Assembly (NCBI RefSeq): GCF_964194025.1
Contig: NC_134468.1
Coordinates: 13,640,001 to 13,704,000 of the forward strand
Origin: Convolutriloba macropyga
Lineage: Eukaryota
Reading direction: 5' to 3'
DNA length: 64,000 bases
The translations under genes were made by a program, and so were the position numbers. This document shows positions 12,033 through 38,913 of the stretch, one piece after another; within the stretch, counting starts at the first letter, position 1, and the number at the start of each line of letters is the position of its first letter. The notes beneath the pieces were generated by a model that ran no database searches, had not been told where the DNA came from, and worked only from the letters and a program-made list of their open reading frames with translations.

Positions 12033-14605
12033 CTTAAATCAAAACAAACAATCTCATACCACCGTCTTATTTGCCAAATCCACCTCATTGTCCACAGCAC
12101 ACGGCTTTTATACAAAAAGAAAGGCTTACAGTCATTATTGCTCTAATAAAAAGTTAACCAGTCAAAAAAGCGTATATGATGGTTTCATTGATAAGCTTGT
12201 CTTTATTCTTGGCAAGTGTGTGTTTCAAAATCCATTTTTCGCAAACTACAAAGCCATAGTTCACAACAGGTACTGTGGTACAGCTTGATAATCTTTGCAC
12301 AATCTGTTTCAAGTATCAAAAATGTGCCAGAATTAACCACTTACAAAGCAAAAATAGCATTTGTACGGAATGAATAATTGCGCTTCAAATAATCTTAATG
12401 TCACTTTTTGAATACTTCAGCTCCTTATTTCGTGACGATTTTTAGCTTCTACAACAGCCATACAAATTTGACTTTTGTAATATGTTGCGTTGACGATTCT
12501 AGAGCATTTAATTCAGGCGCGTGCAAATATGGGAACAGTAATCCAATAACAAAAACGCTAATAAATAAAGAGAAGCAAATCCATTGTCCGATGTCAACAC
12601 CACAACGGAAATTGAAAACCGAAAAACTTGACAAGATCACAAAAATTTCATATAATTTTTAAAAAAAATTAGTATCAATCTCCTTAAGCCACAAAATATA
12701 CAGCTGAAAAACAAATAAAGCTGTGCGAGTGAAAATTTCGTGAAACAAGGACAAAAAGATAGGAAACAGACACACACAAAAACCAGGAACTAATAGTGGA
12801 GCCGCGTAGAATTCATTATCCTCAATAGCTCAAATAACACATCATTATCAACTGAATCTCAAATAGAATAGATCGTTCGTATCATTTAGTAGCCAATGGA
12901 ACTAATTAAACTCATTTGCTTTGAAAGTAGAAGTTTATAATCAAAAACAATTATTCTACAAATTGGCATCCGAAGGGATTAGGAGATAACCTTTAAAATA
13001 ATTCTTTCGCACTCTCATAAATTCTATCATGAAAACTTTCATGAATTCTTTTTACTAGCATACAGTCGTAGTTTGACGCCATGAAAAATATCTCCGTAAC
13101 GTGCTCGTCAAATCAAAAACCGCCTGAGTTACCGTTTCTTTACAGACAAAGTAGAAACACGGTATCATTTGCATAGAAATGAGTTAGTTGACTTCCAGCC
13201 GTTCGAATATGAGATGAACTGTAATGGCAACAAATAGCAGTTTCAAAGCAACGGTAGTAACGCTGAACCTTGTGGTACCTCGGTTTTGATTTCCTGCTCC
13301 GAAGACAAATCTTTAAACAAGACTCTCTCAGATCTACCACAGACAGCTTTCTAAGAAGCAGACAACACAGCCATCGAATTTTTTGCTGACATCTAGAATC
13401 CATAGAAGTATATTTTGATTAAGTGCATGGAAGGCTGCTGATAGGTCAAGCCGAATGTAAAAATTGCCTTTTTGTCCTAAATAAAGTAACGTCATTGATA
13501 ACTTTTAGAAGGGCTGTTTCGGTTGAAAGACACTTTCTACACAAGAATTTATTGCCATCAAGGTGCTCAGTGAGCGGTAAAAAAGCTGCTCTTTCTATTT
13601 AATGTGATATAAATTGATATTCGATACTGGTCTATAGTTTTCAAAATCCTCACAAACAGATTCACCTTTTTAATACCATAAACCGACACACGTTTACAAT
13701 AATTACTTCAAACTCTATTCGAGCGCAATTAATGAAGTCCCAGAGGGAAAATTCCCTGATCTAAAGAAGATCATATCAGTAAGTAGCTTCATATGATGTC
13801 ACTAGAGCTCATTAAAGAGATCTACATGATTTGAATCTACAAAATCAAACCAATTTTGGCCATCTTGAGTTCAGATGTAAAATTGTGAATTAGAGCAATT
13901 TAGATCCCGCTCAATTCGGACAGACAATGACGTAAAAGTCTAATGGTCCGACGAAAAACCAATCGAGCAAAAAATTGCATTAAAAAGACCAAGCGGAGCC
14001 AAATAATGAAACATGACCGACTAACGTCGGGCGAATTGCTCTCAAACGACCGGCGAGCGGTTGGCTTGGTCAGTAGCTAGCCACGGGGGGGGGGGGGGTG
14101 CACCGGGCACCGGGGGCTGATGGGGGCAGTACTGGGTGGGGGAGGGCAAAAGCGCGGTGGGGGGGGGGTGGAGCCAATAGTGGGGGTGGGGGTCAACAAA
14201 GGGGGGGGGGGGGTGTCAACCTCTAAGAACCGCCCCTCACACCATAAGTATAAGTATAAGTCTCCAAGACAGTTTGAGCTGAAACAAACCTGAAAGGCTC
14301 TAAGAGCACATAATGCCCGCTGGGCGCTACCTGTTTATCCCGTTTTTGAGGACGAAAAGTCAAAAGCGTCAGACGAAAAATTGGTCAAGCGAAAAATCGC
14401 ATAAAAAGACCTACAGGACTAATATAATTGCTACAAACTTCGTTTGAGAGCAATTAAAAATGATCAAAATAATATTTTGCATACGAAAAGACAAACACCA
14501 ACTCAATAATCTTGAAACGTTGTTCGAGAGACATCGATAATCCTTCACTATACGCAGGCGTAAGTTTCTAGCGCTCCTATCGGTGTCTATGTAATATATA
14601 CTAAC

Positions 14606-17033: not shown

Positions 17034-20000
17034 CTACCAAAATCAAATTAAAAAAATTACATTACATCAGTTAAATTTCAATTTTGACGAGATCTGTATA
17101 CATTAGGTAATTCATAAAAAGGCAAATGCAAAAACTACAAAAATAATTCCTGTATTATACAATATCAAATTGACTGATGTCGAAGTGGACGGAGTACTTA
17201 GCGCCTAGTAGTTAGTGCTTTTCTAACACCCTCGAAGCTTTCTCGTACATAACTGCCAACAACCCCTCAATTACCTTTCGTTATTTACAAAGCAGATTTC
17301 CGATTGAAGTCTTGTTTCTACTTTACTTAAGTTTTTTTTATATATTATAGTTTTCGTTCACTTGCATTTTGCTGACACGAACACTGCCATTTTGCTGACT
17401 GAGCAGGCCAAAACTAAAGATTATAGAGGATCACGGACCTAAGACAACGTAACTGCGAGGAAGAGCAGTTTTCCCCAACCGAAAACATAGCCGGCAGATT
17501 GCCGGAAAATAGCCGCGATAGACGCTCGTGGCCTTCCATGGAATTCAAACAACTAAAGAAACAAGACAGACAGATTGACCACCAGTCCTTTAATAGACCA
17601 CCAGATTCTTTGGGTTAGATTCGGACTGTCATTTTTATGAGACAAATACCCTCTATAAGGAAAAAGCCCTAGAAGAGCTTTTCCAAAATCAAGTGAGGTA
17701 AGTCACGCAATTGACCTAAAAGCAGAATATATGACGTCACGCACACAAAATTCTAACTCCAAGGCAGTAGAAGTAACTGAAATTGAAAAAGTCAATGGTC
17801 GCAAGAATCATTGCTGGAAGTCCTGAAATACAATCCAAAAAATTGAATGAAAAACTTAGAAATACTGTACTTGACCAGAACATCAGTTGAACAACGCCAG
17901 CCAAAAAGAGAAACAATCTCAAAAGTTTGAACTAAAATCAAACAAACTGAACAAAAATATATTCATTGTAAAACTGATGAACTCTTGGACTCCTGAAGGA
18001 CAAATTTGATCCAATTAACCCTTAAACCATTAACCCGAACACAAACCTCGAAAGGCCAATAAAGACAGCAAAAAATTTAGAACGACCAAGACCTAATGAC
18101 CCGAAAAAAAGTTTCATTGGTCCGTAACGATTCATAAATGACTAAAAAAATAACAAAAAATTTCAAAACAATTGCAATTTGTAATGAAAAGCTGCAAAAA
18201 TTTTAGATATTAGTTTCTTCAGAACCATTTCAATCTATCAAGGCTATTCAGTAGCTCAATTTCTAGCTTTCAAAAGTTGCACTCATAAAGATCGATAATT
18301 TAGAAACATGACAAAAATTTTGAACTGTTCAAAATTTATAAAAGAGATGCAAAAACTTGTGTGTGATATTCAAAAGTTGAAAACAATTCCATTGCCCCTA
18401 GCAACTACTAAAACAAACGAGAAAACCGCAGATGAGGTTAGCTGACCTCTCAGACAAGAAAAAGTGAATAAACGATAAACATTTTCAAAAAATTGGAAAC
18501 AAAAATTACAAGTTATCACAAACTAATAAAATTGGTGAATTCAAAATGTTGAAAACGATTTTATTACAAATAAAAACTATGAAGACACTTATTATCATAC
18601 CTTATAGGAAGTTTTCTGCCACACTGAGGCTGGAAACACTCCAAAATGACAACAATTTTACTTGCAAGCTTTCTCAAAAGGTTGCAAAAATTCGGGACAT
18701 TAAAATGTTGAAAATCAAAAAATGGAATGTTAAAATCAATTGGAAAGCTCAAAAAATGACAAAAAAGTTCAGAAAACTTTGGTATACTTCAACTTGATAA
18801 AAATTGCAAAAATTATCATCATTTTTCGTGATTGTTTACATTACCAAAAACATATTTGAAGAAATTGCCATAAAAAGTAATTATATCTTTTAGAAGACAT
18901 TTATCAACTTTGACAAACGACAATTCAAGAATAATCAAACAAAAACCTCGAAAATTAACAAAAAAACCTGAAAAAAATAGCGCCATTTTGGTCTCGAAAA
19001 CTCATATATGACATTTTAAGCTTGAATTACGGCCTTCCCAGTAGCTTCAACACTCTAAGCACTTGATGGACTATTAAACGCGGCTGAAACCTAATGCGAC
19101 TGGGTCTTACCTGTTTATCCAATTTTGAAAGATCAAAGTCATGACAAATGTGTGAAAGTGTTTAAAACATCTTATGAAAAAAAGAGAGCACCAATACAAT
19201 CTAATTCTTGGATTGTAAACAATGACGATGTCCCCAATATTCGTCGCTATCGCTTCGCGGCTATTAAAAAAAGAGTGAGGGTAAAAACAAAATACACATA
19301 ATTCGATTGTTTCTATAACGCCGCATGATCTAGTGAAGATCCTAATGCTATTAATAGATTCAAAACATCCAATTTCGCAATTGTACCCCAATTGTAATCA
19401 CATCCAGTATATTGATTAGTACAAAAAAATTGTTAAACATTTGAACGCACTTTTGCCTCTATTAGGTCAAACAGTACTTCTATTCATTAATCTTCAGAAA
19501 AACGGTCGCTAATTATTTGGCTATGAAAGACGACCAGGGGGAGGCAACAGTGGGAGGGGGGTTTGGAAACGAATCTAGAGTGACTAATTCCTTTTCGGAG
19601 TAACTCCGTGTGGTATTTCAACGGCATCGCAAATTACTTGATCATTGTCCTCAACTTGATATCAAGAATTTGGAAACGACTCCAAATTTGTCAACAGTAC
19701 AGAAAACAGAACCTGGAGAATGGGATATATTCGTTTGGTAATAATTGGAATACTAAACAAACGCGTACACTTGAAAACCCTCAAATCACCAGTTCCATGT
19801 TTCCAAGAAGTACAGCCGTTCGTACATACTATAGCTGGCGACTAAATCAACACTAAATTACAAGTCTGCTTGGCTCCATAATGATTGTAGTGTCTTGTTT
19901 TCCAAAAAACACAAGAGCTGTCTTTGCTATTTGCTATCTGAAATCGGCCTTTGTTACCAGTCAATTCCCCAAAAAAATTTACTCCTAAATTTTAAAAATT

Positions 20001-23000
20001 GAAAACGCAACAACTTGTCTGCGTATCAAAAAGGAAATGAACTAGGTTTTGTAGAATCAGAAGCTCTTATTCCCCAATAAAAGCAGTTGACAATCAACGA
20101 TCTGCAAATTTTCACAAAATAGGGAATAGAATAGGAAATGTGAGCTTTTAATTAAAACTGCCAGCTGTTTCCCCCAATAGAATTTCCCAGCTGCTCTGAA
20201 TAGGAGTATGTAGACCATATGGAGACCATAGTTTTCTACGGTGTTATCACTTAATGTTATATCTCAGTTTAATTTGCTTTGCTCTACAGTTTTTTTCTAT
20301 GCTATTGACTCTATGTTCAAAAATTACAAAATCTAACGATCTTCAGCCTTCAACAAAACTTCTTTGTCAACTTCTTCGGAAAACGTGAACTTCTTTGGTG
20401 AGATTTTTACCTGTTTCTCTCAATTAAAAATGCGACTGCTCATCCACCAAAAGGTTGCAAAAATTCGGGACATTAAAATGTTGAAAATCATTCCATTGCC
20501 ATTAAAAAGTATAGAGAAAACTATTATCAAACCCTCCAAGACGTTTTATGGCCCTTGAGGCTGGAAAGCTCAAAAAATGACAAAAAAGTTCCGAAAACTT
20601 TGGTATACTTCAAAACTTGATAAAAATTGCAAAAATTATCATCATTTTCGTGATTGTTTACATTACAAAAAAAACAGATTTGATGAAATTGCCGTAATTA
20701 TATCTTTCAGAAGACATTTATCAACTTTTACAAACAACAATTCAAGAATAATCAAACAAAAACCTCGAAAATTGACAAAAAAACGTGAAAAATTGCGCTA
20801 TTTTGGTCTCGAAAACTCATGAATGACCTTTTAAGCTTGAATTACGGCCTTCTCAGTAGCTTCAACACTCTAAGCACTTGATGGACTATTAAACGCGGCT
20901 GAAACCTAATGCGACTGGGTCTTACCTGTTTATCCAATTTTAAAGATCAAAGTCATGACAAATGCATGAAAATTTTTAAAACATCTTATGAAAAAAAGAG
21001 AGCACCAAAACAATCCAATTCCTGGATTGTAAAAAATGAGGATGTCCCCAAAATTCGTCGCTATCGCTTCGCGGCTATTAACAAAAGAGTGAGGGTGAAA
21101 ACAAAATATACATATTTCGGTTGTTTCTATAACGCCGCATGATCTACTCAAGATCCTAATGCTCTTAATAATTTCAAAACATCCAATTTCGCAATTGTAC
21201 TCCAATTGTGATCGCATCCAGTATATTGATTCGTAAAAATAAGTAATTGTTAAACATTTGAACGCACTTTTGCCTCTATTAGGTCAAACAGTACTTCTAT
21301 TCATTAATCTTCAGAAAAACGGTCGCTAATTATTTGGCTATGAAAGACGACCAGGGGGAGGCAACAGTGGGAGGGGGGTTTGGAAACGAATCTAGAGTGA
21401 CTATTTCCTTTTCGGAGTAACTCCGTGTGGTATTTCAACGGCATCGCAAATTACTTGATCATTGTCCTCAACTTGATATCAAGAATTTGGAAACGACTCC
21501 AAATTTGTCAACAGTACAGAAAACAGAACCTGGAGAATGGGATATATTCGTTTGGTAATAATTGGAATACTAAACAAACGCGTACACTTGAAAACCCTCA
21601 AATCACCAGTTCCATGTTTCCAAGAAGTACAGCCGTTCGTACATACTATAGCTGGCGACTAAATCAACACTAAATTACAAGTCTGCTTGGCTCCATAATG
21701 ATTGTAGTGTCTTGTTTTCCAAAAAACACAAGAGCTGTCTTTGCTATTTGCTATCTGAAATCGGCCTTTGTTACCAGTCAATTCCCCAAAAAATTAACTC
21801 CTAATTTTTAAAAATTGAAAACGCAACAACTTGTCTGCGTATCAAAAAGGAAATGAACTAGGTTTTGTAGAATCAGAAGCTCTTATTCCCCAATGAAAGC
21901 AGTTGACAATCAACGATCTGTAAATTTTCACAAAATAGGGAATAGAATAGGAAATGTGAGCTTTTAATTAAAACTGCCAGCTGTTTCCCCCAATAGAATT
22001 TCCCAGCTGCTCTGAATAGGAGTATGTAGACCATATGGAGACCATAGTTTTCTACGGTGTTATCACTTAATGTTATATCTCAGTTTAATTTGCTTTGCTC
22101 TACAGTTTTTTTCTATGCTATTGACTCTATGTTCAAAAATTACAAAATCTACTGATCTTCAGCCTTCAACAAAACTTCTTTGTCAACTTCTTCGGAAAAC
22201 GTGAACTTCTTTGGTGAGATTTTTACCTGTTTCTCTCAATTAAAAATGCCACTGCTCATCCACCAAAAGGTTGCAAAAATTCGGGACATTAAAATGTTGA
22301 AAATCATTCCATTGCCATTAAAAAGTATAGAGAAAACTATTATCAAACCCTCCAAGACGTTTTATGGCCCTTGAGGCTGGAAAGCTCAAAAAATGACAAA
22401 AAAGTTCCGAAAACTTTGGTATACTTCAAAACTTGATAAAAATTGCAAAAATTATCATCATTTTCGTGATTGTTTACATTACAAAAAAACAGATTTGATG
22501 AAATTGCCGTAATTATATCTTTCAGAAGACATTTATCAACTTTTACAAACAACAATTCAAGAATAATCAAACAAAAACCTCGAAAATTGACAAAAAAACG
22601 TGAAAAAAATAGCGCCATTTTGGTCTCGAAAACTCATATATGACATTTTAAGCTTGAATTACGGCCTTCCCAGTAGCTTCAACACTCTAAGCACTTGATG
22701 GACTATTAAACGCGGCTGAAACCTAATGCGACTGGGTCTAACCTGTTTATCCAATTTTAAAGATCAAAGTCATGACAAATGCATGAAAATTTTTAAAACA
22801 TCTTATGAAAAAAAGAGAGCACCAAAACAATCCAATTCCTGGATTGTAAAAAATGACGATGTCCCCATAATTCGTCGCTATCGCTTCGCGGCTATTAACA
22901 AAAGAGTGAGGGTGAAAACAAAATATACATATTTCGGTTGTTTCTATAACGCCGCATGATCTACTCAAGATCCTAATGCTCTTAATAATTTCAAAACATC

Positions 23001-23380
23001 CAATTTCGCAATTGTACTCCAATTGTGATCGCATCCAGTATTATTGATTCGTAAAAATAAGTAATTGTTAAACATTTGAACGCACTTTTGCCTCTATTAG
23101 GTCAAACAGTACTTCTATTCATTAATCTTCAGAAAAACGGTCGCTAATTATTTGGCTATGAAAGACGACCAGGGGGAGGCAACAGTGGGAGGGGGGTTTG
23201 GAAACGAATCTAGAGTGACTATTTCCTTTTCGGAGTAACTCCGTGTGGTATTTCAACGGCATCGCAAATTACTTGATCATTGTCCTCAACTTGATATCAA
23301 GAATTTGGAAACGACTCCAAATTTGTCAACAGAACAGAAAACAGAACCTGGAGAATGGGATATATTCGTTTGGTAATAAT

Positions 23381-23826
23381 TGTCAGCGGAGGCCTACCTA
23401 TACCCATGTGACGTTCACCTTTATGCCAGCTATCTATTAGAGCAATTTTGGGGGCGCTAACTATTTTGGTTTTCTCAGGCTTTTGTTTTAAAGATTTTAA
23501 GTCAGCATGCTCGAAAGAGTTCTTTTGGCAATTTTGAGTCTATCTCCAGAAATAAAAGTTTTGTGCAGCAAAAGTTTTATTCACAAGTCAACTGAGCTGT
23601 AGCTATCGTTCTCTCTGTTCTGAGAGTGGCAATTAGATTAGAGCATAACATTTGATGTTAAATATTTGCACGAGATAAAGTAAGAGCATTGTACAATTTA
23701 ATCTTTATAATCCCGGATGCTTATGCGCGTGTGAATGAGTTAAATTTACTAACAATGGGGTAAATGCACGCGCATGGATTGTACAAATATGTTTAAGCAT
23801 GGCACGAATGTATGAGGGGCATGACA
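23381..23826 (-). repeat. 3' LTR (446 bp)
   Basis: Matches 35902-36339 and lies next to the PPT. Confidence 0.95.
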
Positions 23827-23839
23827 CTCCCACTTCTTC
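23827..23839 (-). promoter_or_regulatory. Polypurine tract
   Basis: - strand GAAGAAGTGGGAG immediately before the 3' LTR TGTCA. Confidence 0.85.
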
Positions 23840-23882: not shown

Positions 23883-24975
23883 ATGTCTTCTGATCTTAAT
23901 TTATTCGCAATGAACTGTGATTCTGACGAGGCGCAGGCTGTCAGTTCTGTGTGCGAATCAGCATCCAGCGAGAAACACCAGAGAAATGTTGTCTGGGCGA
24001 GAGAGCTATGGAATTTTGTGTCAGCTGGAAGTGTGTCGTCTGTTCCAGAGGTGACCCGTGAGGAAATTGAGGGTCAGAGTATGAGTGTTGGCATTCTTCG
24101 CGGGGAGCCTCTGATGGAGTTCAGCAGCCCCGAGATGCAAGTAAGAATCTTGAAGTATGTGTAGAGGTAGTAATCGTGTCTTAGTTGTTGTTCACTGCAT
24201 GAATTGTGAATGCATGTTGTGCTGTTTGGTTTTTACAGCAGTTGGCAACGGGATTGAGGACGCCATTGGATTTCGAAGGACACTTCGCCAGCAACGAGAA
24301 GATCAGGCCAGATTGGGCTTTTCAGTCATGGGTGTGCGAGGGTGTGTATCCTCGTGACATCCTAAGTTACCACCCGAGGCCACATCGCACTGAAAACTTG
24401 TCCGGCTTCTTCAACTTCCGTGTGTTTGGGGGCGAACGTCTGTATGATCCTAGCCTGCTCATTGCAAACTCGTTCACGTACACAGGCCCTCATGTAGATT
24501 CTAAGCCCACGCTGACCACACTTGCTGTTCTCCTCTTTGGCGTGAAGCTCTGGATTATATGTCCAGACATCAAGACAGACACGGCAGCGTTCATTAGAGG
24601 GCTGGATTTGAAAGAAATGTGCAGCTTCCTCAAAGTAATTGCGCAATTAGTTCGGTTTTGACTGTTTTTTGTTCCTCTGCTGACACTATGGGAGCATAAT
24701 GCGGTTGATGTTCTTGATTGTCAAATGTCATGCTTGTTCAGGGGCCAGCAGGGAAAGGATTCAGATTCGTGATTCAACGGCCTGGTGACACGCTGTATCT
24801 GCAAGAGATGGTTGGGCACGCTGTCTTCACTGTCAATGGTCTCCCTGGCATCGACTGTGGGATCATTGAAGAGGGCTCGTGTCTGCTATCGTCACCAGTG
24901 GTCACGGATTTGTCTCCAGAGAGGTTGCACGGGTTAAGTTGGATCGTTGAACAACCCGGCACCCGCTGCTCGTAA
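23883..24975 (+). CDS. JmjC-domain 2OG/Fe(II) oxygenase, 3 exons (23883-24140, 24239-24634, 24742-24975), ~295 aa, antisense within the retroelement
   Basis: Phase-0 introns GTAAGA..TTTTACAG (98 nt) and GTAATT..GTTCAG (107 nt) join three ORFs in frame. Motifs TGPHVD, LLFGVKLWIICP and QRPGDTLYLQEMVGHAVFT. AATAAA at 25084. Confidence 0.85.
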
Positions 24976-25132
24976 GAGGAAGCAGAAGAAGAAGGCCCGG
25001 TTTGGAAGAAATCAGCGCCCAAAGAGTTAGCTCAATGACAAGTGGTATCAAATTTTACTGCACTTTTTTCCCAAATAGTAATGAATAAATAGCGAAAAAT
25101 TGAAAACTGAATAATACGAGAAATGCGGTAAT

Positions 25133-25925
25133 ACCCATATAGCAAAAAGCACAATGTTTACGGTTTGTATATTAAATTTGAGTTGCGTAGCTCAAATAAC
25201 AAGATGAGGCTTTTGTTTTTCGTATTTTAAGAAATTTTATAAATAGCACACAGTTCAGATAAAAGGTGAAATTAAACATAATATAGTGCACAGAAGCACG
25301 CGAAAGAGGGTATAAAGCACGAAGGTTGTTATGATCAATAACTGTGTTAAAAATTACAGCGCTGACTTTTATAGTTAAGCCAGGCTTTTGTTTTAAAATA
25401 CACTGTTTTTTTTTTGAATTAAGTTAAAAAAAAATAACACGAAATTAAACTTTTTGGTTCCTTCATGAAGTCCAATCAGCGCACAAAATTACGCATTTAA
25501 CACAAAGCAATAGCTGAGGAGTGTGTATAGAGAAAACGAGAGCTTTTGAACAAACGGCACTACCAGGCTTTTGTTTTAACTGCAGCAAACTTTATATAAA
25601 TATCACATTCAGAGGGTAATTGTATTCGATTAGAACATAAGTACTAAGCTTAGCCACTCATATGACGTGAGAAGGCACATGTAGGAGCTATGCTGAGATT
25701 TATAGAGAGATTGAGCCAATAGAGTTGTCAGGCTTTTGTATTAAAGAAGCATTAAAAATAAAGCAATGAATAAAACTTGTTCGTCAAATAAAACATAAAT
25801 TAATTAAAAAGTATTTGCGTTTAAGATTTTGTTTTACCCATGTGACATTAAGCACATAAACTCGGAGCTCCTGACAAAGAACGGTGGTTTTCTGTTGAGT
25901 AGTTTGGTCAGGCTTTGTTTTTTAA
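25133..25925 (+). repeat. Degenerate array, 5 units with ~175-bp period, two-part motif
   Basis: AGGCTTTTGTTTT-like box at 25207, 25382, 25565, 25730, 25910; ACNCATNTRAC-like box exactly 74 bp upstream at 25133, 25491, 25656, 25836. Confidence 0.7.
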
Positions 25926-26488
25926 CAATAACAAAATAGTGAAATTAAAAGCAAATCTTTTTTCAAATCATTGAAATATTTTTTATTTTAGAGCCAACAA
26001 CAAGCAGCACACAGCTTCTAGACGAGGGAAGCCGCAGCGAATAGCTGCAAGCAGAAGGGTGGGGAGAGGAGGGGGACAGGGGGGAGAAACGAAGCATCGT
26101 CATTAAGTTTTAGTAGGTATATCCACTTTATTTATACTTGAAAAATTTTCTGGTTATTAAATTGAGAAGTAGCACACATATTGAATCCGCGATAATCTAA
26201 CATATTTGTAGCAATTATTCGTGTCGGTAGTTTTGGTGGACGAATTGTAAAATAATTTTCATACAGCTCCAGAAATAAATGTATTTTTTTCCTGTTTTTT
26301 TTTTCAATTTATATGAGTATTTTTTTTTTCCTTTTCACAATTATATAATTAAATCTTTCAAGCCAAAATCTTTTATAATTGAGTATAGGACTGAGAGTAG
26401 CACAGGTATAATAAATTGTTTGTGAGTGAAAAACACCCAGAATCAAATCAGTAACTAATGGTTTATGAAGATTTTCAGATCTATAAAA

Positions 26489-26761
26489 ATGATGTCAAAG
26501 ATATTGTTTGTTGCATTATTTGCTATGATTGTTACGAGTGTTGATATTAACAAGTGCATTTTATTGAGCGAAGAGAACAATTTTGGGACAAATTTGAAGT
26601 GGTTGTGTTGTGATGGAGTACAATTTTTGAGCGAGGCTGGAAAAATTACAGCAAAAGCAGGGGCATGCGAAAATTCCCAAAATAAAGTGAAGCCTTCAGC
26701 TGGCAGCATGTTAATGATAGCCAGTTTTGCAATTGTGCTACAATTACAGTTGAGTCATTAA
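26489..26761 (+). CDS. Small predicted secreted, GPI-anchored protein (90 aa; ORF open from 26465)
   Basis: N-terminal hydrophobic signal MMSKILFVALFAMIVTS, 4 Cys, candidate omega site in CENS, polar spacer, hydrophobic C-terminus MLMIASFAIVLQLQL. Confidence 0.6.
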   Translation: MMSKILFVALFAMIVTSVDINKCILLSEENNFGTNLKWLCCDGVQFLSEAGKITAKAGACENSQNKVKPSAGSMLMIASFAIVLQLQLSH

Positions 26762-26940: not shown

Positions 26941-29242
26941 TTAAGCACGCGACTCATAAATCACTTGAGGATAAATGGGGGGCGGAACAATCGATTGCTC
27001 TGACTCTGGACAAGATGCAGATTGAGAATCCGCTGTATCAACAGTAGTTGTTGAAGGGCTAAAAAATGGATTTGGTAAATTTAAATCACGTCGTCGGAAA
27101 ATTAATCCCTTTTCGCGAACACGATGATTAGGGTGTTGTCGCAAGTAGTCATAATCTTCATCAGAAACTACCAAAATGGGCTGTGATTTAATAGTGTGGG
27201 CAGAAATAGTTAGGCGAAATGGGAAACGTCTATGAACTTGAATGTACCGGTGAAAAAGATAACTCATCAAAAAGTGTAGACCGAAAGACAAAATAAATGT
27301 AGTGATCGCAAACACTATATAAGGTGTCCAGTGCACCGTCTCATCGAATTTTGCTGTTATCTGAGGATGAAATTGTTTCATGCGATTAACAATAGGTTCA
27401 GTAACTTTTTCGAGTTCTTTATAATTACGTCTCTTATGCTCAGGAATGTGAATTAGTTGGAGATGAACCTCCTCTACTAATTGTACTCGAGCAATGTCAA
27501 CATCAGACATTTGTGGCATAGAATCAAGAGATGGAAGTTGATTGAATAAAAAGCTAAGCGGCGTTGGTAAATTAATGTCGAGTCTTAACTGGTGTTGTAT
27601 ACTGACAGGTAGACCAATCTGATCTTAAATGTATATTAGGTCCTTCTAATTCCTGTCCACACGCTAAAATAATAATGCAAACTTGGCACCCTTGTCTATG
27701 TTCTTTACTTAGGGGATGACTAGAATTCGGAGATCTAGACGAGAGCAGAAAGTTTGGCGTTGCACTAGTAATCAGCCATCTACCATGGCCTAACGATTGA
27801 GCCTTTTCTTTGATAGGTAATTGAATTGATCTGATGCTACAAACTTCGAGTGCGGATAGAGTGTCTTTAAAAAGCAAAGTAGCCAGACATGAGTCCTTCG
27901 ATTTTTCCATCGCAAAAGAAGAGAAACAAATTGAGTAAAGCTTAGAGCCTATACATTCTTGTAAGTCAAATTCAGTCAAAAGTGCAGCTTCACTTTGCGT
28001 GTCTGTTACTGCAATGTAAGGCGTTTCTAAAACCCAAATGGTTGCTCTTGTTGACTCTTTAGTTGGCATTGGAACTGGAAGAGCGTGAATTACATCTAAA
28101 GCTGTAGAACCTGATGAAAAAGGTATAGATAATGTTAACATAAGACCAAAGTCGACACTAACAACACTTGTAACAAGTCGTGTCTCATAGTAAGACATCA
28201 CATGTTCTATTGGAATGGAAAGTGTTAGTCGATCTCTGTTGTATTGAGTTTCTAGCAAAACTTGTTGTAAAATTCGAATAAAAATTTTGCGAGGTATAAG
28301 AGAAAGTGGCAGCATACCATCTGCAATGGCAGTAGTCGAGCTCAAAATATTCATTCTAAAAGCAAAAAGAGCAGATCTATATGTGCGCAGATTGGTGTAT
28401 ACAGACGTTAAAATAGAGTTCAACAGGCCAATGTGGTGATTGAATTCTTCACGGATATAAAGAAATTGGTCACAATTTCGCATGTAGTTAATGCTGCTAG
28501 CCAATGTGTCAAACTGTGTCTGTAAAATTTTAACATTAGATCTCTGGATTTCAGCTAGATGTTCTGTGGCTTTACGCAGGTCTCGGAGTTCCTTTCCTAC
28601 TATAAAAAATTTCTCGTTCGTGGCGTTTTGGACACTAGACCATTCTTGCTGTAATTGGTTCATGTGGTTGATTGAGTCTACAATAGCTTTTCTATTCTGC
28701 TTACCAATCTGATTGCATCCGCCAAACATTCGTCCTAATGTACAGGATAGTTTGTCTTTGAATCCCATGCCCAGACCAAAGATTCCAGCTGCAGCGCCTG
28801 CTAACAGGGCAACGGGAATGCCTCTTCGTTCTCGATATTGATGCTCTGTAACTTTTGAGGGGAACAGCTCTGTGAGTTCTTGCTGAAGTTTCACCAAGTC
28901 GTTTTCGGCTCTTTCTTTCTCTGCAATGACTTCGGTAAGAACCCATTGTGAATTGAAGTTGGTGGCAGTGATGTTACTGTAGTCAAGTTGGCATCCCTTG
29001 TTGGGGTGATTCCAGATTGTGTCCATTCTTTGTGCGATTTCAGAGATAAATTTATCAATTGTTAGGTCAAAATTTGGAAAAGGCAAAACAAATTGAATCT
29101 GTTCAAATTTTTCAGCCAATAGTATTTTTCGATGGTAATTAAAAACAATGCCATTATGTTCTGAGTTTCCTGCTATCAGAAAAGGAAAGATTATTAATTG
29201 AACAAGCGAAATTGAATACAAGTTGTAACCAAAGTTGGCCAT
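26941..29242 (-). pseudogene. env: env, class I fusion glycoprotein (baculovirus-F/errantivirus-like), one frameshift near 27584
   Basis: Signal peptide, furin site RERR|GIPVALLAGAAAGIFGLG fusion peptide, heptad region, Cys-rich region, TM WTPYIVFAITTFILSFGLHFLMSYLF. The shifted frame LDINLPTPL.. aligns with the second env. Confidence 0.9.
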
Positions 29243-29509
29243 TCTTTAGTTAAAATTTGTTTTCTTAAGTTCGCCAATTGTTAGTACTGCTCAATTCGAC
29301 TGATTTTTGGATAAATGATCTAAATATGTGAATATTTTGGTTTGTATTCTGAGTGTGTTGAACTTTATAAGAAAAGGTTATGTTTGAACTGACGGGAGTG
29401 ATATCCAAAGTTTAGTCAAATTAACTTTTATCAAATGTTACTAGATTTGTTTGCTGTTTCAGTGGAGCACAGGAAGGACATAGTTTGCCTACTTAGATAA
29501 TCTAAACAA

Positions 29510-32500
29510 TTAGTTTGCGAATCGGTCAGAGTTCGATGAGCTGGCTTGATAGCGTTTTGGTACGTTCACCTCTCGGCGAAGTTCATATGCCCTGTTAGTT
29601 CCAACGCGTGGATCTTGATCTGGTGGAACTAATGAGCGGCGCCTTCTTTTTGATTTATTTGGCGGATCCAAAGGAACCGCTTGTGAAAACACGCTGGTCG
29701 GTTGAGTAGTGGCCCGTGTAACGTAATTTGGATAGTGTCGGGTATCAATGAATTCGGCACTCTGAGTAGTTGGTTGGAAGTGTTGGTTTCCTTCTACCAC
29801 AAATTGCTCCGCAGTATTTTTATACTCTTCGTGACAAAAACCTGGCCTGTTTTCCTGGTTTTGGGTCTGTAGGGGTCGCAAAATGGGCTGCTCATCATCT
29901 GATTGTTGTAATATGGGGTCTGAATTTCGTCCATCAGCAACTAAATTTGTGTTATTATCATTTTCACGTCGGTTTATATTTAATTGCAGTTCCGGATTAT
30001 TTGCAAAGTGTGTTGGAGCATTAAAACGTGATCTCACACCAAATTGCATAATTGAGGAACCATTAGATGGTCCCACTATGATTGGCGAGTGGTGGGAGGC
30101 TAGATCTTTTAGGGTTTGGTCAAAAATTTGAGGTTCAGAGATTATTTTTGTGATTGGGTCGGCTTTAAAAATTTTGGAGTCAATCTCTTTCAAATCTTCA
30201 AACTCGTATTTTGGTTGAATTGGACGCAAACCAATACGATGTACGAGTTGTGTATCGTTGGTATTAACTTTGCGAACTATATAATTTGAATTTGTTAAAA
30301 CTTGCTCAACGCGATAGAGCGGTAACCATTTGGTTACTGATTTAGCAGCAAAGTCTTTTGTACTACTTATTTTTGGGTTCATTAATAGGCAGTACGAATA
30401 CAATGCTAGAGGTTTTGAAAGAGCTTTTTTGTCATAGAAACGACGATATTTGTTGTATGCAACTATGGAATTATCCCTAGCACCAGCAAAGAGCGTGTTC
30501 ATACGGTCTTGACTTTGTTGTAAAAAGTCTTGAGTTGGTTGCGCTTTTTTGACAGTTAAATTATTGAATCGCAAGTCAAGGGGCTTTGTCGGCTGACGGC
30601 CATGAAAGAGCAGGGTCGGGGGGCATCCTATTGAAGAATTATAAGTGGTGTTATAGACAGAAGCTGCGATATCAACATAATGGTGCCAGTCTTTTACAAT
30701 TATATCTTCGTAAATATGCAAAAATCGTTTTACTATAGCATGGCTACGTTCAACTGCACCAATTGTTTGAGGATGTTTTACAGATGCCAATTTTAGTTCA
30801 ACTTCTAGCAATTCACATAAAGTTTTCATCATCTTTGACGTGAAAACTGAGCCCAAATCACAAAATGGTTGATGGAAGGTATGCGTGCTGCATAAAAATT
30901 TGAAGCAAAAATCTGGCAACGTTTTCCGCCGAGGCATTTTTCATTGGGATTAGAAAAAGATAACGGCTGAAGATATCCATCGCAGAGAGTATGTGTATAA
31001 CCTCCGGAGGGATTAAGTTTGCCTACAATATCTACTTCCATCAAATCTCCCGGAAAACATTGTTCTGATGCAATTGGTAAAAGAGGTGTTTTTAGGCTGT
31101 TTTGCTGAACTGATTTGATTTGCAAACAAGATGAACAATTGGACACATACTCTAAAAGAGTTTCTGTAAATTCAAGAAAGTAAAACCTCTGGCGAAACTG
31201 GTTTGCAGTTTCGGCTGTTCCAATGTGTCCCATAAATTTGCTATTGTGAATTCTAAACAGAATCTCATGACGAAGGTGCTTAGGAAGAACCAACTGACGT
31301 ATAAAATTCTGTCCGGTGTTATCGAAAAATTTGCGATATAACACATTATCATACAATTCCAATCGGTTCAATTGTTTATTATATTTTTGCAATTCGGTAT
31401 TAGAGTAAGTTGTAACTGGTTTCACTTTTCTCTTGATCCAATTGATCACAGTTCTAATATTGCCATCTTTTTGTTGCTCCTCAAAAAGATTCAGGGACTG
31501 GTTGTTATTGCTGAGATCAAACTCATCTAAGGGGTTAGCTTCTGCGAGTGAATTTAAGGGGAAGTCAAAAGAAGGCTCAAACACTTCAATCATATCAGAA
31601 TCTGGTTCCTCTAAATAGCACTGTAAAGCTGTAAGACTATTGTCTGGAATTTTTGGTCGGAATTCGACAGCAACGTCTATAAGTTGAATTCTGGTTTCCA
31701 ATTTTAGTTGGAGCTTTGTAGCAGGATTAATATAGATCCTAGACAAATAATCTGCGGCTACGTTAGCTTTACCTGGGACATGCCCCAAAACAAAATTGAA
31801 ATTAAGGACATGATCAACTGCATTCCATAAGGCAGTTGGAATTGTCTTTGCCTGGAAAAAACTAGTCAAACTTTTGTTGTCAGTCAACACTAAGATAGGT
31901 TTTTTAGTCCCCCATAAGATGTGCGCAAAATTATCAAAAGCAAAAGGAACTCCCAGAAACTCTTTTGCATAAACTGATAATTTAAGTTGCGTTGTATTAA
32001 AGATTTTAGAACCAAAAGCCACGGGAGCGTATTGCTTCTGTTCTAGTCCTTCCTGGTTCAGTACATAGTCCTCTACCATAAGGACGTATCCTGCGGAATA
32101 ATAGCTTGCGTCGGACAAAATTACATATTGTAGATCTGTTTTTGGTTGGCGAAGGGTTATTTTACAAGCATTGTTTAGCATTTCTATTAGTTCACTCATC
32201 GATTTTCGGTGCTCATCCGTAATTTCAAAATTGTTGTTACATTTTAGTAGTTTGTAAAATGGGAGCAGTCTCTCACTGAGGTTCGGTAAATAGGTCCTAA
32301 AGTATTGAAATAAACCAACAAGTCTTTTGACTTGCTTGAAGTTTTTTGGCATTTTGAGATTTGATAAAAATTTATCTATTTTGGCCTTTATGGGAGATGT
32401 CCCTTCCGATGAAATTGTTCTACCTAAAAGTGTGATCTCGGGGACACCAATTTCACATTTTCCCATTGATAACTTAAGTCCTGAATTTCTAATACACGTA

Positions 32501-33890
32501 AAGATAGCTTTCAAATTTCCGTAAAGACACTGAAAATCAATTGCGCCTGTTCCCAAATCATCCACGTACTGGAAACATTGGTCATTAGCTATACATGAAT
32601 CAAGGTACTTTCTCATGAAAGAGCTGAAGGCACTGACTGATCTACTTAGTCCCTGTGCTAACCTAGTGTACGCAAAGGTTCGGGAGGCAAAATTGAAGGC
32701 TAATAACTGGACAGATAATGGGTCAGACATCTTAACCGCATAATACGCCGGACTACAATCTAGTTTTGCGAAAATTCGTTTGCCCGCTAAATGTGCTCCG
32801 ACATCTTCTATAGTTGAAATCGGGAAATTGTTAGAGTTGTAGTCATGGCGTATTAAGTGATTAATACGCCTAAGGTCAACTAATAGTCGGAGTTTTCCGG
32901 ACGGTTTGCGTTGCGCAAAAAGAGGGCTCGAGTATTTGGAATAGGGCAGTGTAGTGATGATTCCAAAATACTGCATTATAGCTAAATCAATTAGGATTTC
33001 CTCGCGCAAGTGAATTGCAGTGGGTGGGCTCTGAGTATACACTGGTCGCTGTGTTTCAGGTGTGAGCTTAATCTTAAACTGGTCATTTCCACCGACATCA
33101 TAATTGTGCCGCGCAAAGACATCATGAAAAGAAACTAAAAGTTCTTCAAAGTAGGCGTTAAAATTGTAAGTCGAGCAACTACTGCTCCCTTTGGTACTGA
33201 AACTACATTTGGGGTTACATTTAAGAAAGCTATTGGCGTTTTTGAAGATTGGATTTTTGAAAAGGAGCTGGTTAAACAAAGACCTGTTGATCTTTCAAAA
33301 CGTGGGTTAGGATCTACAATTCCAATTGTGTTGTCGGCTAAAATATTGTCGAGAAAACAATCTATTGTTTCCTGACTATTGGGGAAAATGTTCAATTTTT
33401 TGATTGTTTTGAGAACGTATTTATGTTTTTTTAAATTTCTTTTTCGTTTTGCCATTACGCATTGTCATTTCTGAAATTTGCAGCGATATTTCAGGCAGGT
33501 GTAGTTTTTGATGCTACGTCAATTAGAATTCTATTGTTTTTATAGAATGGAAGACCTAAAATTGGGTTATTCATTTTCGGCAACAACAAAAACTTTTCTG
33601 TGAATACTTGATTAGCGAGAGTGAAGGTGATTTCAACTTGACCTAGGGTTTTTGCATGGGTTGCGTTTGCCACTTTTACAACGGGAAAGGGGTTTGTATC
33701 AAGATATTTAATACTCTGCGGTGCAGAAGATTTAATTTTCAAGCATGGACGGTGTAAGAGCACTAGAGAAAGCACCAGAGTCCACTAAAAACTTTAAGGA
33801 AAGTGATTTAAACGTTAGGGGAACAAAAAACAGATTTGAGGAAAAAGGAGGCATAACAGCAGTTAGAAAAGGGGGTTGCAAATGTGGCTG
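29510..33890 (-). pseudogene. pol: pol (protease, RT, RNase H, integrase) with frameshifts and an internal deletion
   Basis: FLVDSGA protease motif (~33785); RT LRLLVDLRRINH, AQGL, YVDD; RH SDAS..ELL-like..TDNKSL; IN HHCC (H..H..CSSC), DIVG, DLGSVFTS, ERSH. Confidence 0.95.
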
Positions 33891-33892
33891 AC

Positions 33893-35781
33893 CTAGTTTT
33901 TTTGCTGATCAAATGGCAGTTGCTGATTTCTTTCAGGTTGAGGTTTGGACCAGCAGTACTGCACTGTGTGTCCATACTTTCCACAATTGCGGCAGTATCT
34001 CTGGTTTCTGGTGGGCATTGTATTTGACCAGTGTCCTGCGTATGCTGTTGGATAGCCTGATGCTGGGTAACCTTGTGCTTGCACACCCGCTTCATCAGTT
34101 GTCGCTGACTGTTGGCCGTGGGACTGATAGCCATAAGCCTGGTAGACTGGCTGCTGTTGTCCTGTTGTTATATAGCCCATTTCCACCGACATCATAATTG
34201 TGCCGCGCAAAGACATCATGAAAAGAAACTAAAAGTTCTTCAATTTGTTCCTTTTCTTGTTCAGTTAAAATTGAATTGTCCCACCGAAATTTTGAAAGAA
34301 ATTTTTTCCTAGACTCAGAATCTTTTGTTGGATCAAGCTTTTCTTGTTCTTTCAAAAATTTGAGTGTCTCAAATATTCTTTTGTGAATACCGGTTAATGC
34401 ATCTGGGTCCTCACAATTTTCAGGTGTAGGAAACCAAAAGCAGTCTGTTGGAAATGGTAAACTTTGCTGGGAATTGTCAACAAGCTCGTTTATGTCGCTG
34501 CCATCTATATTTAAGAGCGCTGGGTCAATTGGTTGTAAATACTTTGCTTGCTTAGGCGTTAAAATTGTAAGTCGAGCAACTGGACGGTGTAAGAGCACTA
34601 GAGAAAGCACCAGAGTCCACTAAAAACTTTAAGGAAAGTGATTTAAACGTTAGGGGAACAAAAAACAGATTTGAGGAAAAAGGAGGCATAACAGCAGTTA
34701 GAAAAGGGGGTTGCAAATGTGGCTGACCTAGTTTTTTTGCTGATCAAATGGCAGTTGCTGATTTCTTTCAGGTTGAGGTTTGGACCAGCAGTACTGCACT
34801 GTGTGTCCATACTTTCCACATTTGCGGCAGTATCTCTTTCAAATTTTGACTTTTATATAGCCCGGTCTTTGAGAGCTGATTGCATTGTGACTCTGATTAT
34901 TTTGACGCCAGTCTCTTTGTTGGAAAGGTTGTTGCATCTGCCAGTTTTTGTTAAACTGGTAGGGCGGATTAAACCGCTGTCTTGGGTAAAACCCACCTCT
35001 GCCTCGATAGAAATGGTGCGGCTGTCTAAAATTACTATAAGGAGCATTAGAGTTTGCATTTTGACTTTTATGCTCTTCCAGTGACTTCGCTAATTTGTTT
35101 GTTGTTTCTTTCAGCTCTGTTTGATTTTTATTTAAGGCACTCATACTCTGAATAAGTGAGGTCATTTGTGAGGCTGAGATTTCGCTAAATGCTGTTCCGA
35201 CATCATCTTCAGGGTATTGCTCTTCAAGCATCGCCCTTCTAGAAGCCCGTTCACAAGTCTTCTACAGTGGTGTGGTCAGGAAGAGTTAGTAGGTACTTTT
35301 TAAGCTTATTTGGCAAACCATTAATAAAGTTCTCCTTAACTCTTCTGACTCGCTCATTAGAACGATCTTCAGCAGCAACTGCTGGCACGCCAGCAGCGGC
35401 AGCTCGCGCAGCAATATTTGGAAAAGCAAGACTAGCTAAGCGTTGCAACTCTGTCAAAAAATCATGAATGCTTTCCTCTGATTGCTTCAGTTTTCTATTT
35501 TGGAATTGGAGTTTATAAAGTTCAATTCTATCAGGGTTTACATACCGGTTTCTCAATGCGTCTAGTGCTTGATCCAAGTCTTCACGTATGGCTTCTGTAA
35601 GCTGGTCATAAAAAACTAAGGCATTACCTTTAAGATGAAGATGCAAGTAGCGATGTTGTTGATCCTCGTCGATTGCTGCCAATCCAATGCAACTTCGAAG
35701 TTGTCGTTCAAATTGAGTAAAATTATCTTTCTCTGATCCCGAAAAGGGCGTCAAATTGAGAAAAGGTTGCAACTGAGCCAT
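33893..35781 (-). pseudogene. gag: gag (Ty3-type capsid + CCHC knuckle), frameshifted and internally rearranged
   Basis: LTPFSGSEKDNFTQFERQL..LKGNALVFYDQL capsid; knuckle CR[K/N]CGKYGHTVQYC present twice (~34790-34832 and ~33955-33997), each followed by an AAAAAAC slippery heptamer and TAG. Confidence 0.9.
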
Positions 35782-35887
35782 AGTTTACAACAAGAGATTG
35801 CAGAGTTTTACGATTTAGTTGTCATTTCCAATGGGAGTCATATTTAGTTTTAAGAGAAAAAATCTCTTGACTCAAACTTGCCAAAAA

Positions 35888-35901
35888 CACTCCTGTCACC
35901 A
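35888..35901 (-). promoter_or_regulatory. Primer-binding site, tRNA-Leu-like
   Basis: TGGTGACAGGAGTG directly after the 5' LTR; one mismatch to the complement of the recalled tRNA-Leu(CAG) 3' end (TGGTGTCAGGAGTG). Confidence 0.85.
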
Positions 35902-36339
35902 TGTCAGCGGAGGTGACAGCGGAGGTTCTCCTTTATGCCAGCTATCTATTAGAGCAATTTTGGGGGCGCTAACTATTTTGGTTTTCTCAGGCTTTTGTTT
36001 TAAAGATTTTAAGTCAGGATGCTCGAAAGAGTTCTTTTGGCAATTTTGAGTCTATCTCCAGAAATAAAAGTTTTGTGCAGCAAATGTTTTATTCACAAGT
36101 CAACTGAGCTGTAGCTATCGTTCTCTCTGTTCTGAGAGTGGCAATTAGATTAGAGAACAACATTTGATGTTAAATATTTGCACGAGATAAAGTCAGAGCA
36201 TTGTACAATTTAATCTTTATAATCCCGGATGTTTATGGGCGTGTGAATGAGTTACACTTTACTAACAATGGGGTAAATGCACGCGCATGGATTGTACAAA
36301 TATGTTTAAGCATGGCACGAATGTATGAGGGGCATGACA
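35902..36339 (-). repeat. 5' LTR (438 bp)
   Basis: Matches 23381-23826 and is followed on the - strand by the PBS. Confidence 0.95.
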
Positions 36340-38359: not shown

Positions 38360-38893
38360 CTGAAAAACATAGATCACATACAAAAACATACATAACTTGA
38401 ACACAAAAATTCTTTTCTTTAACTTTATTATAGTATCTCCTTCCCCCGCTGGTCACGCAGATAAACTTTCTCTTCGTTGTCGTAACTATAAGAAATTGGG
38501 TAGATACCCGAGTTACCAATTTTTTCCCACGTCACCAATGAAATTCAAACCAAAAATGAATGCGACGCCCGCACAGTCAACAAGACTGATAGTGTAGACG
38601 CCGTGTATGTCATATACAAATTCCTAATCCAGATTTGATATGAATTACACTTTTGTATTGGTTGAAATTCTGATATGGTAAAATGAATTTGTAGCTATTT
38701 AGAAATGGATTGTGATTGGTTTATTAGATTAACTTACAAAAACAATTGAAGAAGTTGCATGAAGGAGTTGGAAGAGATAGAGTGTTAGAATAAAGTTGCA
38801 AAAAGATGTTTTGAAATTGAGAGAATTAGAGGGAATCTGCTCAGAACCTGCATCTGAAAAATTATAAACCATAGAATTAATAGTGATAGAAGA

Positions 38894-38913
38894 TGGTGAC
38901 AGGAGTGGGATTC
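38894..38913 (+). promoter_or_regulatory. Primer-binding site, tRNA-Leu-like
   Basis: TGGTGACAGGAGTGGGATTC, extending into the complement of the tRNA T-arm. Confidence 0.9.

What the first reader, a model, noticed from the sequence alone, without database searches (positions are those of the whole stretch)
25133..25925. Two-part motif array with invariant 74-bp spacing and ~175-bp period, echoed once in the 3' LTR
Seen: box B (AGGCTTTTGTTTT-like) at 25207, 25382, 25565, 25730 and 25910 (gaps 175, 183, 165, 180). Box A (ACCCATATAGC, ACGCATTTAAC, ACTCATATGAC, ACCCATGTGAC) starts exactly 74 bp upstream in 4 of 5 units, although the sequence between the boxes is not alignable by eye. The 3' LTR has the same pair 75 bp apart (23402 and 23477). 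Each unit can form a variable stem-loop closing just before the T-run (CTCA/TGAG, CTGACTT/AAGCCAG, CCTGAC/GTCAGG). Constant spacing with diverged filler suggests selection. Hypotheses: a cluster of small RNA genes ending in Pol III-type T-runs (compare the BLV miRNA cluster downstream of env); nucleosome-phased binding sites (74 bp is about half a core particle, 175 bp about one repeat length) that recruit the JmjC protein; or E-box enhancers (CATGTG/CATATG in two units).
Basis: partly seen in the sequence, partly recalled or inferred. Interest (0 to 1): 0.85.

Follow-up and report, generated by a model that had tools for sequence, protein, structure and literature searches.

The report
Repeated promoter-like cassette in enveloped retrotransposon
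A retrovirus-like mobile element in an animal genome carries six copies of a fixed-length 90-base cassette that most likely starts transcription backwards through the element, making short RNAs or driving two extra genes it has picked up; this is inferred from sequence only.

Summary
The array is real. It lies between env and the 3' LTR of a minus-strand Gypsy-type element with an env-like gene. Five array units and one LTR (U5) copy form a gap-free ~90-bp module. Box A sits 74 bp (LTR 75) before box B (0 of 5000 shuffles). The filler is also homologous in register (0 of 5000), while the linkers between modules vary (91-109 bp) and do not align. The BLV-type reading fails: no fold signal, no A/B boxes above chance, T4 runs inside 4 of 6 modules. 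E-boxes occur in only 3 of 6, and there is no 10-bp periodicity. Best explanation (0.45): antisense Pol II promoter cassettes with a PSE-sized upstream box, an in-register A/T block at -34..-29, and a start at or just before box B, followed by A/T-rich DNA that may end transcription early. One copy precedes an intron-containing JmjC-like gene; five precede a small secreted-type ORF. No Rfam family matches. Other element copies and the host's snRNA promoter could not be examined, and nothing shows transcription.

The parts
23381..23826 (-). 3' LTR (TG...CA), preceded on the left by target-site duplication ATAAT (23376-23380); element is inserted in a 1817-bp tandem repeat
   Evidence: 10 mismatches and 3 gap columns in 419 shared columns with the 5' LTR
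23400..23491 (+). LTR (inferred U5) copy of the module: box A 23402, box B 23477, spacing 75
23827..23839 (-). polypurine tract next to the 3' LTR
   Evidence: sequence
23883..25031 (+). antisense three-exon JmjC/cupin-like cargo gene (splice acceptor 6 nt before the ATG; introns about 24141-24241 and 24635-24741; basic tail in a different frame from exon 3); AATAAA at 25084
   Evidence: relatives P0121-P0124, P0126 with invariant P-H-x-D; Atlas lead to JmjC/JMJD6 clusters, weak recognition; no Pfam hit
25131..25221 (+). module 1 (box A 25133, box B 25207)
25306..25396 (+). module 2 (degenerate box A in register at 25308, box B 25382)
25489..25579 (+). module 3 (box A 25491, box B 25565)
25654..25744 (+). 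module 4 (box A 25656, box B 25730); three AATAAA follow at 25757, 25769, 25787
25834..25924 (+). module 5 (box A 25836, box B 25910)
26489..26761 (+). antisense 90-codon ORF with hydrophobic N- and C-ends (secreted/GPI-anchored type, by inspection); splice acceptor 10 nt before the ATG
   Evidence: P0127 99% identical, cluster of 7 member sequences; no family
26941..29245 (-). env-like gene in two overlapping frames (basic cleavage-type motif, hydrophobic peptide, C-terminal membrane segment; by inspection)
   Evidence: no Pfam or PDB hit; 38% identical over 274 aa to the env-like ORF at 40178-41647
29510..33294 (-). pol: RT, RNase H, integrase, in two frames
   Evidence: Pfam RVT_1, RT_RNaseH, Integrase_H2C2; 1183 relatives at E<=1e-20
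35251..35784 (-). gag-like ORF
   Evidence: Retrotrans_gag E 1e-4, below the curated cut-off
35888..35901 (-). primer-binding site (begins TGG); tRNA-Leu assignment is recalled, not tested
   Evidence: sequence
35902..36339 (-). 5' LTR; keeps filler and box B (35989) but its first ~30 nt on the + strand are rearranged and box A is absent; ATAAT follows

Best explanation
Each unit is a ~90-bp promoter cassette of fixed geometry, read on the + strand, antisense to the retroelement, most likely by RNA polymerase II. Box A (about 21 bp) is the upstream factor site, possibly a host snRNA-type element bound by SNAPc. An A/T block at -34..-29 sits at the TATA position. Transcription starts at, or up to about 17 nt before, the first A of box B. 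The T-run and the very A/T-rich DNA behind it would favour early pausing or 3'-end formation. The five internal copies would then give short capped RNAs sharing AGGCUUUUGU and/or 5' ends for the small cargo gene; the LTR copy would be the antisense promoter of the JmjC-like gene. Shown: the module, its fixed length, its conserved blocks, its position ahead of two antisense genes, and its homology to the LTR. Inferred: transcription, polymerase, start site, SNAPc, products.
For: Fixed 74/75-bp length with in-register conservation over the whole module and none beyond +15 suggests the footprint of a large DNA-bound complex; RNA structure is absent. In-register A/T block at -34..-29: 24 of 5000 rotations for five units (window 6; 82 and 119 for windows 7 and 8), 11 of 5000 with the LTR. 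Pyrimidine at -2 in 6 of 6, C at -1 in 5 of 6, A at 0 in 6 of 6 fit the animal initiator (recalled knowledge). A second block at -13..-1, 0 of 5000. Box A has the size and the conserved-5'/variable-3' pattern of insect PSEA and shares its C-x-C-A core (PMC1761439): 2, 3, 3, 2 mismatches to ATTC-CAA in units 1, 3, 5 and the LTR; 2.4% of window 8-mers have <=2 and 10.6% <=3 (register chosen by eye). GC 0.15-0.30 behind box B vs 0.30-0.44 in the filler resembles the A/T termination signal of SNAPc-driven nematode piRNA loci (PMC7917550, PMC6436959). A polyA hexamer lies within +9..+84 in 5 of 6 modules (217 of 5000 shuffles; marginal). The antisense spliced gene begins 57 bp after the LTR ends, so its promoter most likely lies in the LTR; BLV has such a 3' LTR antisense promoter (PMC10236774).
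Against: No expression data. The two geometries disagree: an animal PSE centre lies 50-55 bp before the start, giving -16..-11, while the TATA/initiator pattern gives 0. Units 2 and 4 match the fly PSEA core poorly (6 and 4 mismatches) and were missed in leave-one-out. The host's own snRNA promoter is unknown: no snRNA gene lies in the window. Only units 1, 3 and 4 contain TATA itself near the A/T block, and not in one register. Donor-like sites behind box B are at unrelated distances. An AATAAA 74 nt behind the LTR box B (23551) could cut a JmjC transcript short. The second LTR element in the window has no such module. A module-like pair before env on the sense strand is at chance level (41 of 60 shuffled windows).
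Confidence: 0.45

Rival explanations
1. A DNA-level array of paired protein-binding sites (enhancer, insulator or transcription barrier) with helical phasing and no discrete transcript; it shields env/pol from antisense read-through of the JmjC-like gene, like the su(Hw) array of Drosophila gypsy (recalled).
For: Position directly behind the JmjC polyA signal (25084) and at the outer edge of the LTR; 74 bp is about seven helical turns; A/T-rich linkers; no RNA structure.
Against: Does not by itself explain the in-register A/T block at -34..-29 or the -13..-1 block; no 10-11-bp periodicity; E-box in only 3 of 6 modules.
Confidence: 0.22
2. Pol III genes ending at the box-B T-run: either ~80-nt RNAs from box A (BLV-like, type 2) or ~19-27-nt RNAs from a U6-type promoter starting near -12 to -16.
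For: T4 or T6 run in every box B; purine at -11 in 5 of 5 array units; box A from its eighth base has 1-4 mismatches to the A-box consensus; five units between env and the 3' LTR as in BLV.
Against: No B-box inside or behind the units; T4 runs between the boxes in 4 of 6; no hairpins; no TATA at the fly U6 position in 5 of 5 array units; orientation is antisense to the element; a start at -16 would be cut at once in unit 2 and the LTR.
Confidence: 0.13
3. Sense-strand elements on the genomic RNA or SL-like mini-genes: reversed box B as promoter or protein site, reversed box A ending in a splice donor (ATGN|GT).
For: Reversed box A reads ATGN then GTA in units 1, 3, 5 and the LTR, GTG in unit 4; box B is the better conserved box, as a promoter element might be; SL trans-splicing exists in several invertebrate phyla (PMC2481426, PMC9911081).
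Against: No conserved Sm site or hairpin behind the donor (by eye); SL exons are constant whereas the filler is only ~36% alike; unit 2 has no donor; five donors in a 3' UTR would endanger the genomic RNA.
Confidence: 0.12
4. Neutral, decayed tandem duplications of an LTR U5 segment.
For: The LTR copy is homologous through the filler.
Against: Identity is strongly uneven (0.82, 0.58, 0.36, background); A-B length is fixed in 5 of 5 while linkers vary with sd 7.9 and mostly do not align (z -1.46 to 2.28).
Confidence: 0.04

Closest known systems
BLV miRNA cluster (five Pol III type-2 pre-miRNA genes) and BLV 3' LTR antisense promoter
   Same: Five units between env and the 3' end; T-runs; an antisense promoter in the 3' LTR (PMC10236774, passages).
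   Different: No hairpins, no A/B boxes above chance, internal T4 runs, antisense orientation, and a homologous copy in the LTR.
Animal snRNA promoters (insect PSEA + PSEB/TATA; SNAPc)
   Same: ~21-bp upstream box with conserved 5' half and variable 3' half, C-x-C-A core, strict spacing to downstream blocks (PMC1761439).
   Different: No snRNA body, Sm site plus hairpin or Rfam match behind it; the A/T block lies about one turn further from the box than the fly U6 TATA; host PSE unknown.
Nematode Ruby-motif piRNA loci
   Same: Upstream motif, fixed distance, A/T-rich low-melting DNA behind the start, short units in series (PMC6436959, PMC7917550).
   Different: No GTTTC core; an invariant motif would lie inside the RNA; no constant 5' U; carried by a retroelement, not by host clusters.
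Oikopleura Tor internal promoter Penv; bdelloid LTR elements with extra ORFs
   Same: Env-bearing Gypsy-type elements with an internal promoter (PMC4402516) or captured extra genes (PMC5408684).
   Different: Here the cargo genes are antisense, one has introns and is JmjC-like, and the cassette is repeated five times and shared with the LTR.

Membership tests
BLV-type Pol III pre-miRNA cluster | Stable ~55-80-nt hairpin per unit | tested here: not met
   z -1.35..+1.26 for six A-to-T-run stretches; 1 of 48 tests below -2
BLV-type Pol III pre-miRNA cluster | Intragenic A-box | tested here: inconclusive
   1-4 mismatches in register at +8; no enrichment (630 of 1000 shuffles on +) (consensus from PMC12498455)
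BLV-type Pol III pre-miRNA cluster | B-box inside or behind the terminator | tested here: not met
   8 of 8 region/strand/pattern tests at chance, lowest 219 of 1000
BLV-type Pol III pre-miRNA cluster | No T4 run before the terminator | tested here: not met
   T4 between the boxes in units 2, 3, 5 and the LTR
SNAPc-dependent snRNA-type gene | PSE matching that of host snRNA genes | not testable with these tools
SNAPc-dependent snRNA-type gene | Resemblance to a published PSE core | tested here: inconclusive
   mismatches to fly ATTC-CAA: 2, 6, 3, 4, 3, 2 for units 1-5 and LTR
SNAPc-dependent snRNA-type gene | Fixed spacing to downstream elements | tested here: met
SNAPc-dependent snRNA-type gene | Known snRNA/SL/U7 body (Sm site plus hairpin) | tested here: not met
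   no Rfam match at gathering score; no fold signal behind box B
U6-type (type 3) Pol III promoter | TATA box at PSEA positions 34-41 | tested here: not met
   absent at -45..-38 in 5 of 5 array units
Ruby-motif piRNA locus | A/T-rich signal behind the start | tested here: met
   GC 0.15-0.30 at +4..+43 vs 0.30-0.44 in the filler
Ruby-motif piRNA locus | GTTTC core upstream and a fully variable 5'-U RNA | tested here: not met
   columns; box B would be constant inside the RNA
tRNA or tRNA-derived unit | Cloverleaf with A and B boxes | tested here: not met
   ARAGORN 0 genes
Ty3/Gypsy LTR retroelement with env-like gene (host element) | LTRs, TSD, PBS, PPT, gag, RT-RNaseH-IN order | tested here: met
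JmjC oxygenase (cargo gene) | HxD...H metal motif in a cupin fold | tested here: inconclusive
   H-x-D invariant in 6 of 6 aligned; later His by eye in exon 3; Atlas lead; no Pfam hit; model pLDDT 37.9

The most novel reading that the evidence does not exclude
An env-bearing Gypsy element has captured the host's snRNA-type promoter and multiplied it into a cluster of mini-genes. These make 20-50-nt RNAs with a constant AGGCUUUUGU core and variable flanks, without hairpins, Dicer or TFIIIC: a retroviral small-RNA cluster built on the plan of nematode piRNA loci, used together with a JMJD6-like enzyme to steer host silencing or Pol II pausing.
Probability: 0.2. Interest if true: 0.85.

Novelty: new variant of a known kind. 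Interest (0 to 1): 0.62.

Why it matters
Small-RNA clusters and antisense promoters are known in complex vertebrate retroviruses; a comparable organisation in an invertebrate Gypsy element would show convergent complexity. If the cassette is SNAPc-type, it is a second case, after nematode piRNAs, of snRNA promoters being reused for arrays of short transcripts, here by the parasite. The six diverged copies give a natural mutagenesis of one promoter, and the predicted start (-17..+2 of box B) is directly testable in cap-based and small-RNA data. An intron-containing JmjC-like cargo gene did not appear in my search listing for LTR elements.

Tried and rejected
Rfam: five scans, nothing at gathering score; best E 0.047 to a bacterial sRNA at 26 of 126 bits. 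No 5S, U2, U7 or SL hit, so resemblances of box B to those (recalled) were dropped. tRNA: none. Tandem Repeats Finder and the repeat finder do not report the array. Hairpins: chance. Guide role: the best match of the variable parts elsewhere in the window is 14 nt (unit 1, at 10373), reached by 3 of 100 and 2 of 100 shuffles, among 10 tests; not significant, and only 64 kb could be searched. Seventh module before env (A 29918, B 29843, minus strand): chance level; among the 40 best-listed integrase matches from 128 stored proteins none reached that tail. Bacterial promoter/terminator scan: nothing, not applicable. GTDB scan with RT: 45 pattern hits, none confirmed. JmjC exon: no hit in Pfam, PDB (profile E 0.41) or the longer-protein search; P0125 (a PKD-domain protein) was dropped as chance before alignment; the fold model was too poor to search with. 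Cluster look-up could not be made, so relatives stayed unnamed. Yeast-centromere, Pol I terminator and hammerhead readings were considered by eye from recalled features and dropped: the filler is not A/T-rich enough, the order of parts is wrong, or the stems are missing.

Full report
Setting. The array lies inside a 13-kb LTR element on the minus strand: LTRs 23381-23826 and 35902-36339 (10 mismatches, 3 gap columns in 419), a 5-bp target duplication, PBS and PPT, gag-like, RT, RNase H and integrase domains, and an env-like gene recognised by inspection only. The element interrupts a 1817-bp tandem repeat. Between env and the 3' LTR, on the opposite strand, lie a three-exon JmjC-like gene (23883-25031, AATAAA 25084), the array, and a 90-codon ORF with hydrophobic ends (26489-26761). 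The small ORF has a 99% identical relative in a cluster of 7 sequences, and the JmjC exon a 92% relative and four at 37-45% (6 hits, one dropped as chance), so the cargo is shared by other copies and probably other families. The host was not identified with tools. From memory the RT resembles Gypsy elements of acoel worms; this is an untested lead. An acoel genome paper reports 36.7% GC, half the genome in LTR elements and SL trans-splicing (PMC9911081), which is compatible and no more.

Observation. All coordinates hold. The box-B 10-mer occurs exactly 6 times in 64 kb, all in the element, against 0.15 expected; unit 5 is a variant. Box A is in register at -74 in four units (0 of 5000 shuffles) and at -75 in the LTR; unit 2 keeps four invariant columns. 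Leave-one-out recovered 4 of 6. A pair scan of both strands gives six modules above score 34; the next scores 18 (the six were the training set).

The filler is homologous without gaps: 0.365 vs 0.267 (0 of 5000 rotations), strongest at -13..-1. The LTR filler joins the set with one extra base (0 of 2000). DNA behind +15 does not align (0.300 vs 0.339; linker z -1.46 to 2.28) and B-to-next-A is 101, 109, 91, 106. So the unit is a ~90-bp fixed-length module, from -76 to +14, with pairwise identity 0.33-0.53, separated by free A/T-rich linkers. Inside it are box A (about 21 bp), an A/T block at -34..-29 (24 of 5000; 11 with the LTR; weaker for wider windows), a block at -13..-1, and pyrimidine-C-A leading into box B. 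GC falls to 0.15-0.30 behind box B.

BLV miRNA genes have A-boxes, a hairpin, a terminator and then a B-box (PMC5622367, PMC12498455, PMC10236774). Here folding is at chance, A- and B-box scans are at chance in 12 of 12 tests, and T4 runs interrupt 4 of 6 modules. E-boxes are in 3 of 6. A/T dinucleotides show no 10-11-bp peak (no null). Five Rfam scans found no family. The guide test in the window was negative.

Best explanation. Exact spacing with low-level conservation throughout and no RNA structure points to DNA geometry for a large complex. The order upstream box, A/T block about 30 bp before a pyrimidine-C-A, reads as a Pol II promoter starting at box B (TATA and initiator positions are recalled textbook knowledge). 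Box A resembles insect PSEA in size, conservation pattern and C-x-C-A core (PMC1761439), though two units fit badly and an animal PSE would put the start at -16..-11 instead. Modules stand ahead of both antisense genes, each of which has a splice acceptor within 10 nt of its ATG, as cis- or trans-splicing from an upstream start would need. The A/T-rich DNA and polyA hexamers behind box B (5 of 6, 217 of 5000) suggest short products, as at SNAPc-driven nematode piRNA loci (PMC7917550, PMC6436959). I give this 0.45; insulator/enhancer array 0.22; Pol III genes 0.13; sense-strand element with donors at reversed box A 0.12; neutral decay 0.04. Transcription, polymerase, factor and product are all inferred. 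Against: no module in the second LTR element; the env-proximal look-alike is at chance (41 of 60); an AATAAA 74 nt behind the LTR box B could truncate the JmjC transcript.

JmjC link. H-x-D is invariant in six aligned sequences and the Atlas places P0121 near JmjC/JMJD6 clusters with weak recognition; Pfam, PDB and folding gave nothing usable. No DNA-binding domain was found, and nothing ties the protein to the array. A role in Pol II pausing, recalled for JMJD6, is speculation.

Literature seen. Passages only: PMC9911081 (plus supplement text; its SL RNA figure is an image I could not see), bioRxiv 2022.08.27.505549, PMC2566580, PMC2481426, PMC5054213, PMC7917550, PMC6436959, PMC5622367, PMC12498455, PMC5408684, PMC4402516, PMC10236774. 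Passages plus one section: PMC1761439 (Introduction; promoter alignments are figures, not seen) and PMC2655684 (section 14; the PSE table is an image, which bears on the PSE claim). PMC5006418: no term found. Ten searches, judged from listings, showed no report of such an array or of snRNA-type promoter arrays in an LTR element; the library lacks most subscription journals.

Unchecked. Other DNA copies of the element, host snRNA/SL genes, viral and metagenome collections, and names of the protein relatives. A GTDB scan found no relative.

Verdict. A real, selected, fixed-geometry module repeated six times in a complex env-bearing Gypsy element. It is not a member of any family tested. It most likely works like a tandem set of antisense promoters or short transcription units. 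New variant of a known kind; interest 0.62.

Noticed in passing
window 38608-42144 (+): Second LTR element with 286-bp LTRs (98% alike), a PBS like that of the first element, a 112-nt palindrome at 38933-39044 and an env-like gene but no gag or pol: a non-autonomous env-only element. Its env is 38% identical over 274 aa to the first element's.
   Followed up: partly
window 23883-25031 (+): Intron-containing JmjC/cupin-like gene carried antisense in the element; three of the five aligned relatives end at or just after the same exon-2 boundary.
   Followed up: partly
window 26489-26761 (+): Small cysteine-containing ORF with signal-peptide-like start and hydrophobic tail; intact in a 7-member cluster; no family.
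   Followed up: partly
window 23551-23581 and the matching 5' LTR stretch: AATAAA on both strands within an imperfect inverted repeat: a possible two-way polyadenylation signal in the LTR.
   Followed up: no
window 35902-35930: 5' LTR lacks box A; a short duplication stands in its place, while filler and box B are kept.
   Followed up: partly
window 29918-29830 (-): Module-like pair (spacing 75) in the integrase tail, ~600 bp before env; score at chance level.
   Followed up: yes
window 25747-25837 (+): Weak module-like pair (spacing 76, score 18) in the linker between units 4 and 5; a decayed unit or an A/T-rich artefact.
   Followed up: no
window 26040-26090 (+): G-rich purine tract between the array and the small ORF, flanked by acceptor-like and donor-like sites; possible non-coding exon or promoter element.
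   Followed up: no
window 33746-34002 / 34581-34837 and 33084-33149 / 34178-34243: Near-identical internal duplications in the gag-pol junction; the element's ORFs are split in several places.
   Followed up: no
window 2780-4047, 9255-13745, 18741-23382, 44149-50809, 51943-55449: Several long tandem repeats (periods about 421, 2450, 1817, 3350, 1370 bp) with no Pfam or Rfam match at cut-off.
   Followed up: no
window 42150-43700 (+): Degenerate coding remnant with a PHD finger (42591-42833), by inspection a Penelope-like or non-LTR retroelement fragment.
   Followed up: no
window 10373-10386 (+): 14-nt identity to unit 1 (-19..-6) in the 2450-bp repeat; not significant after 10 tests.
   Followed up: yes
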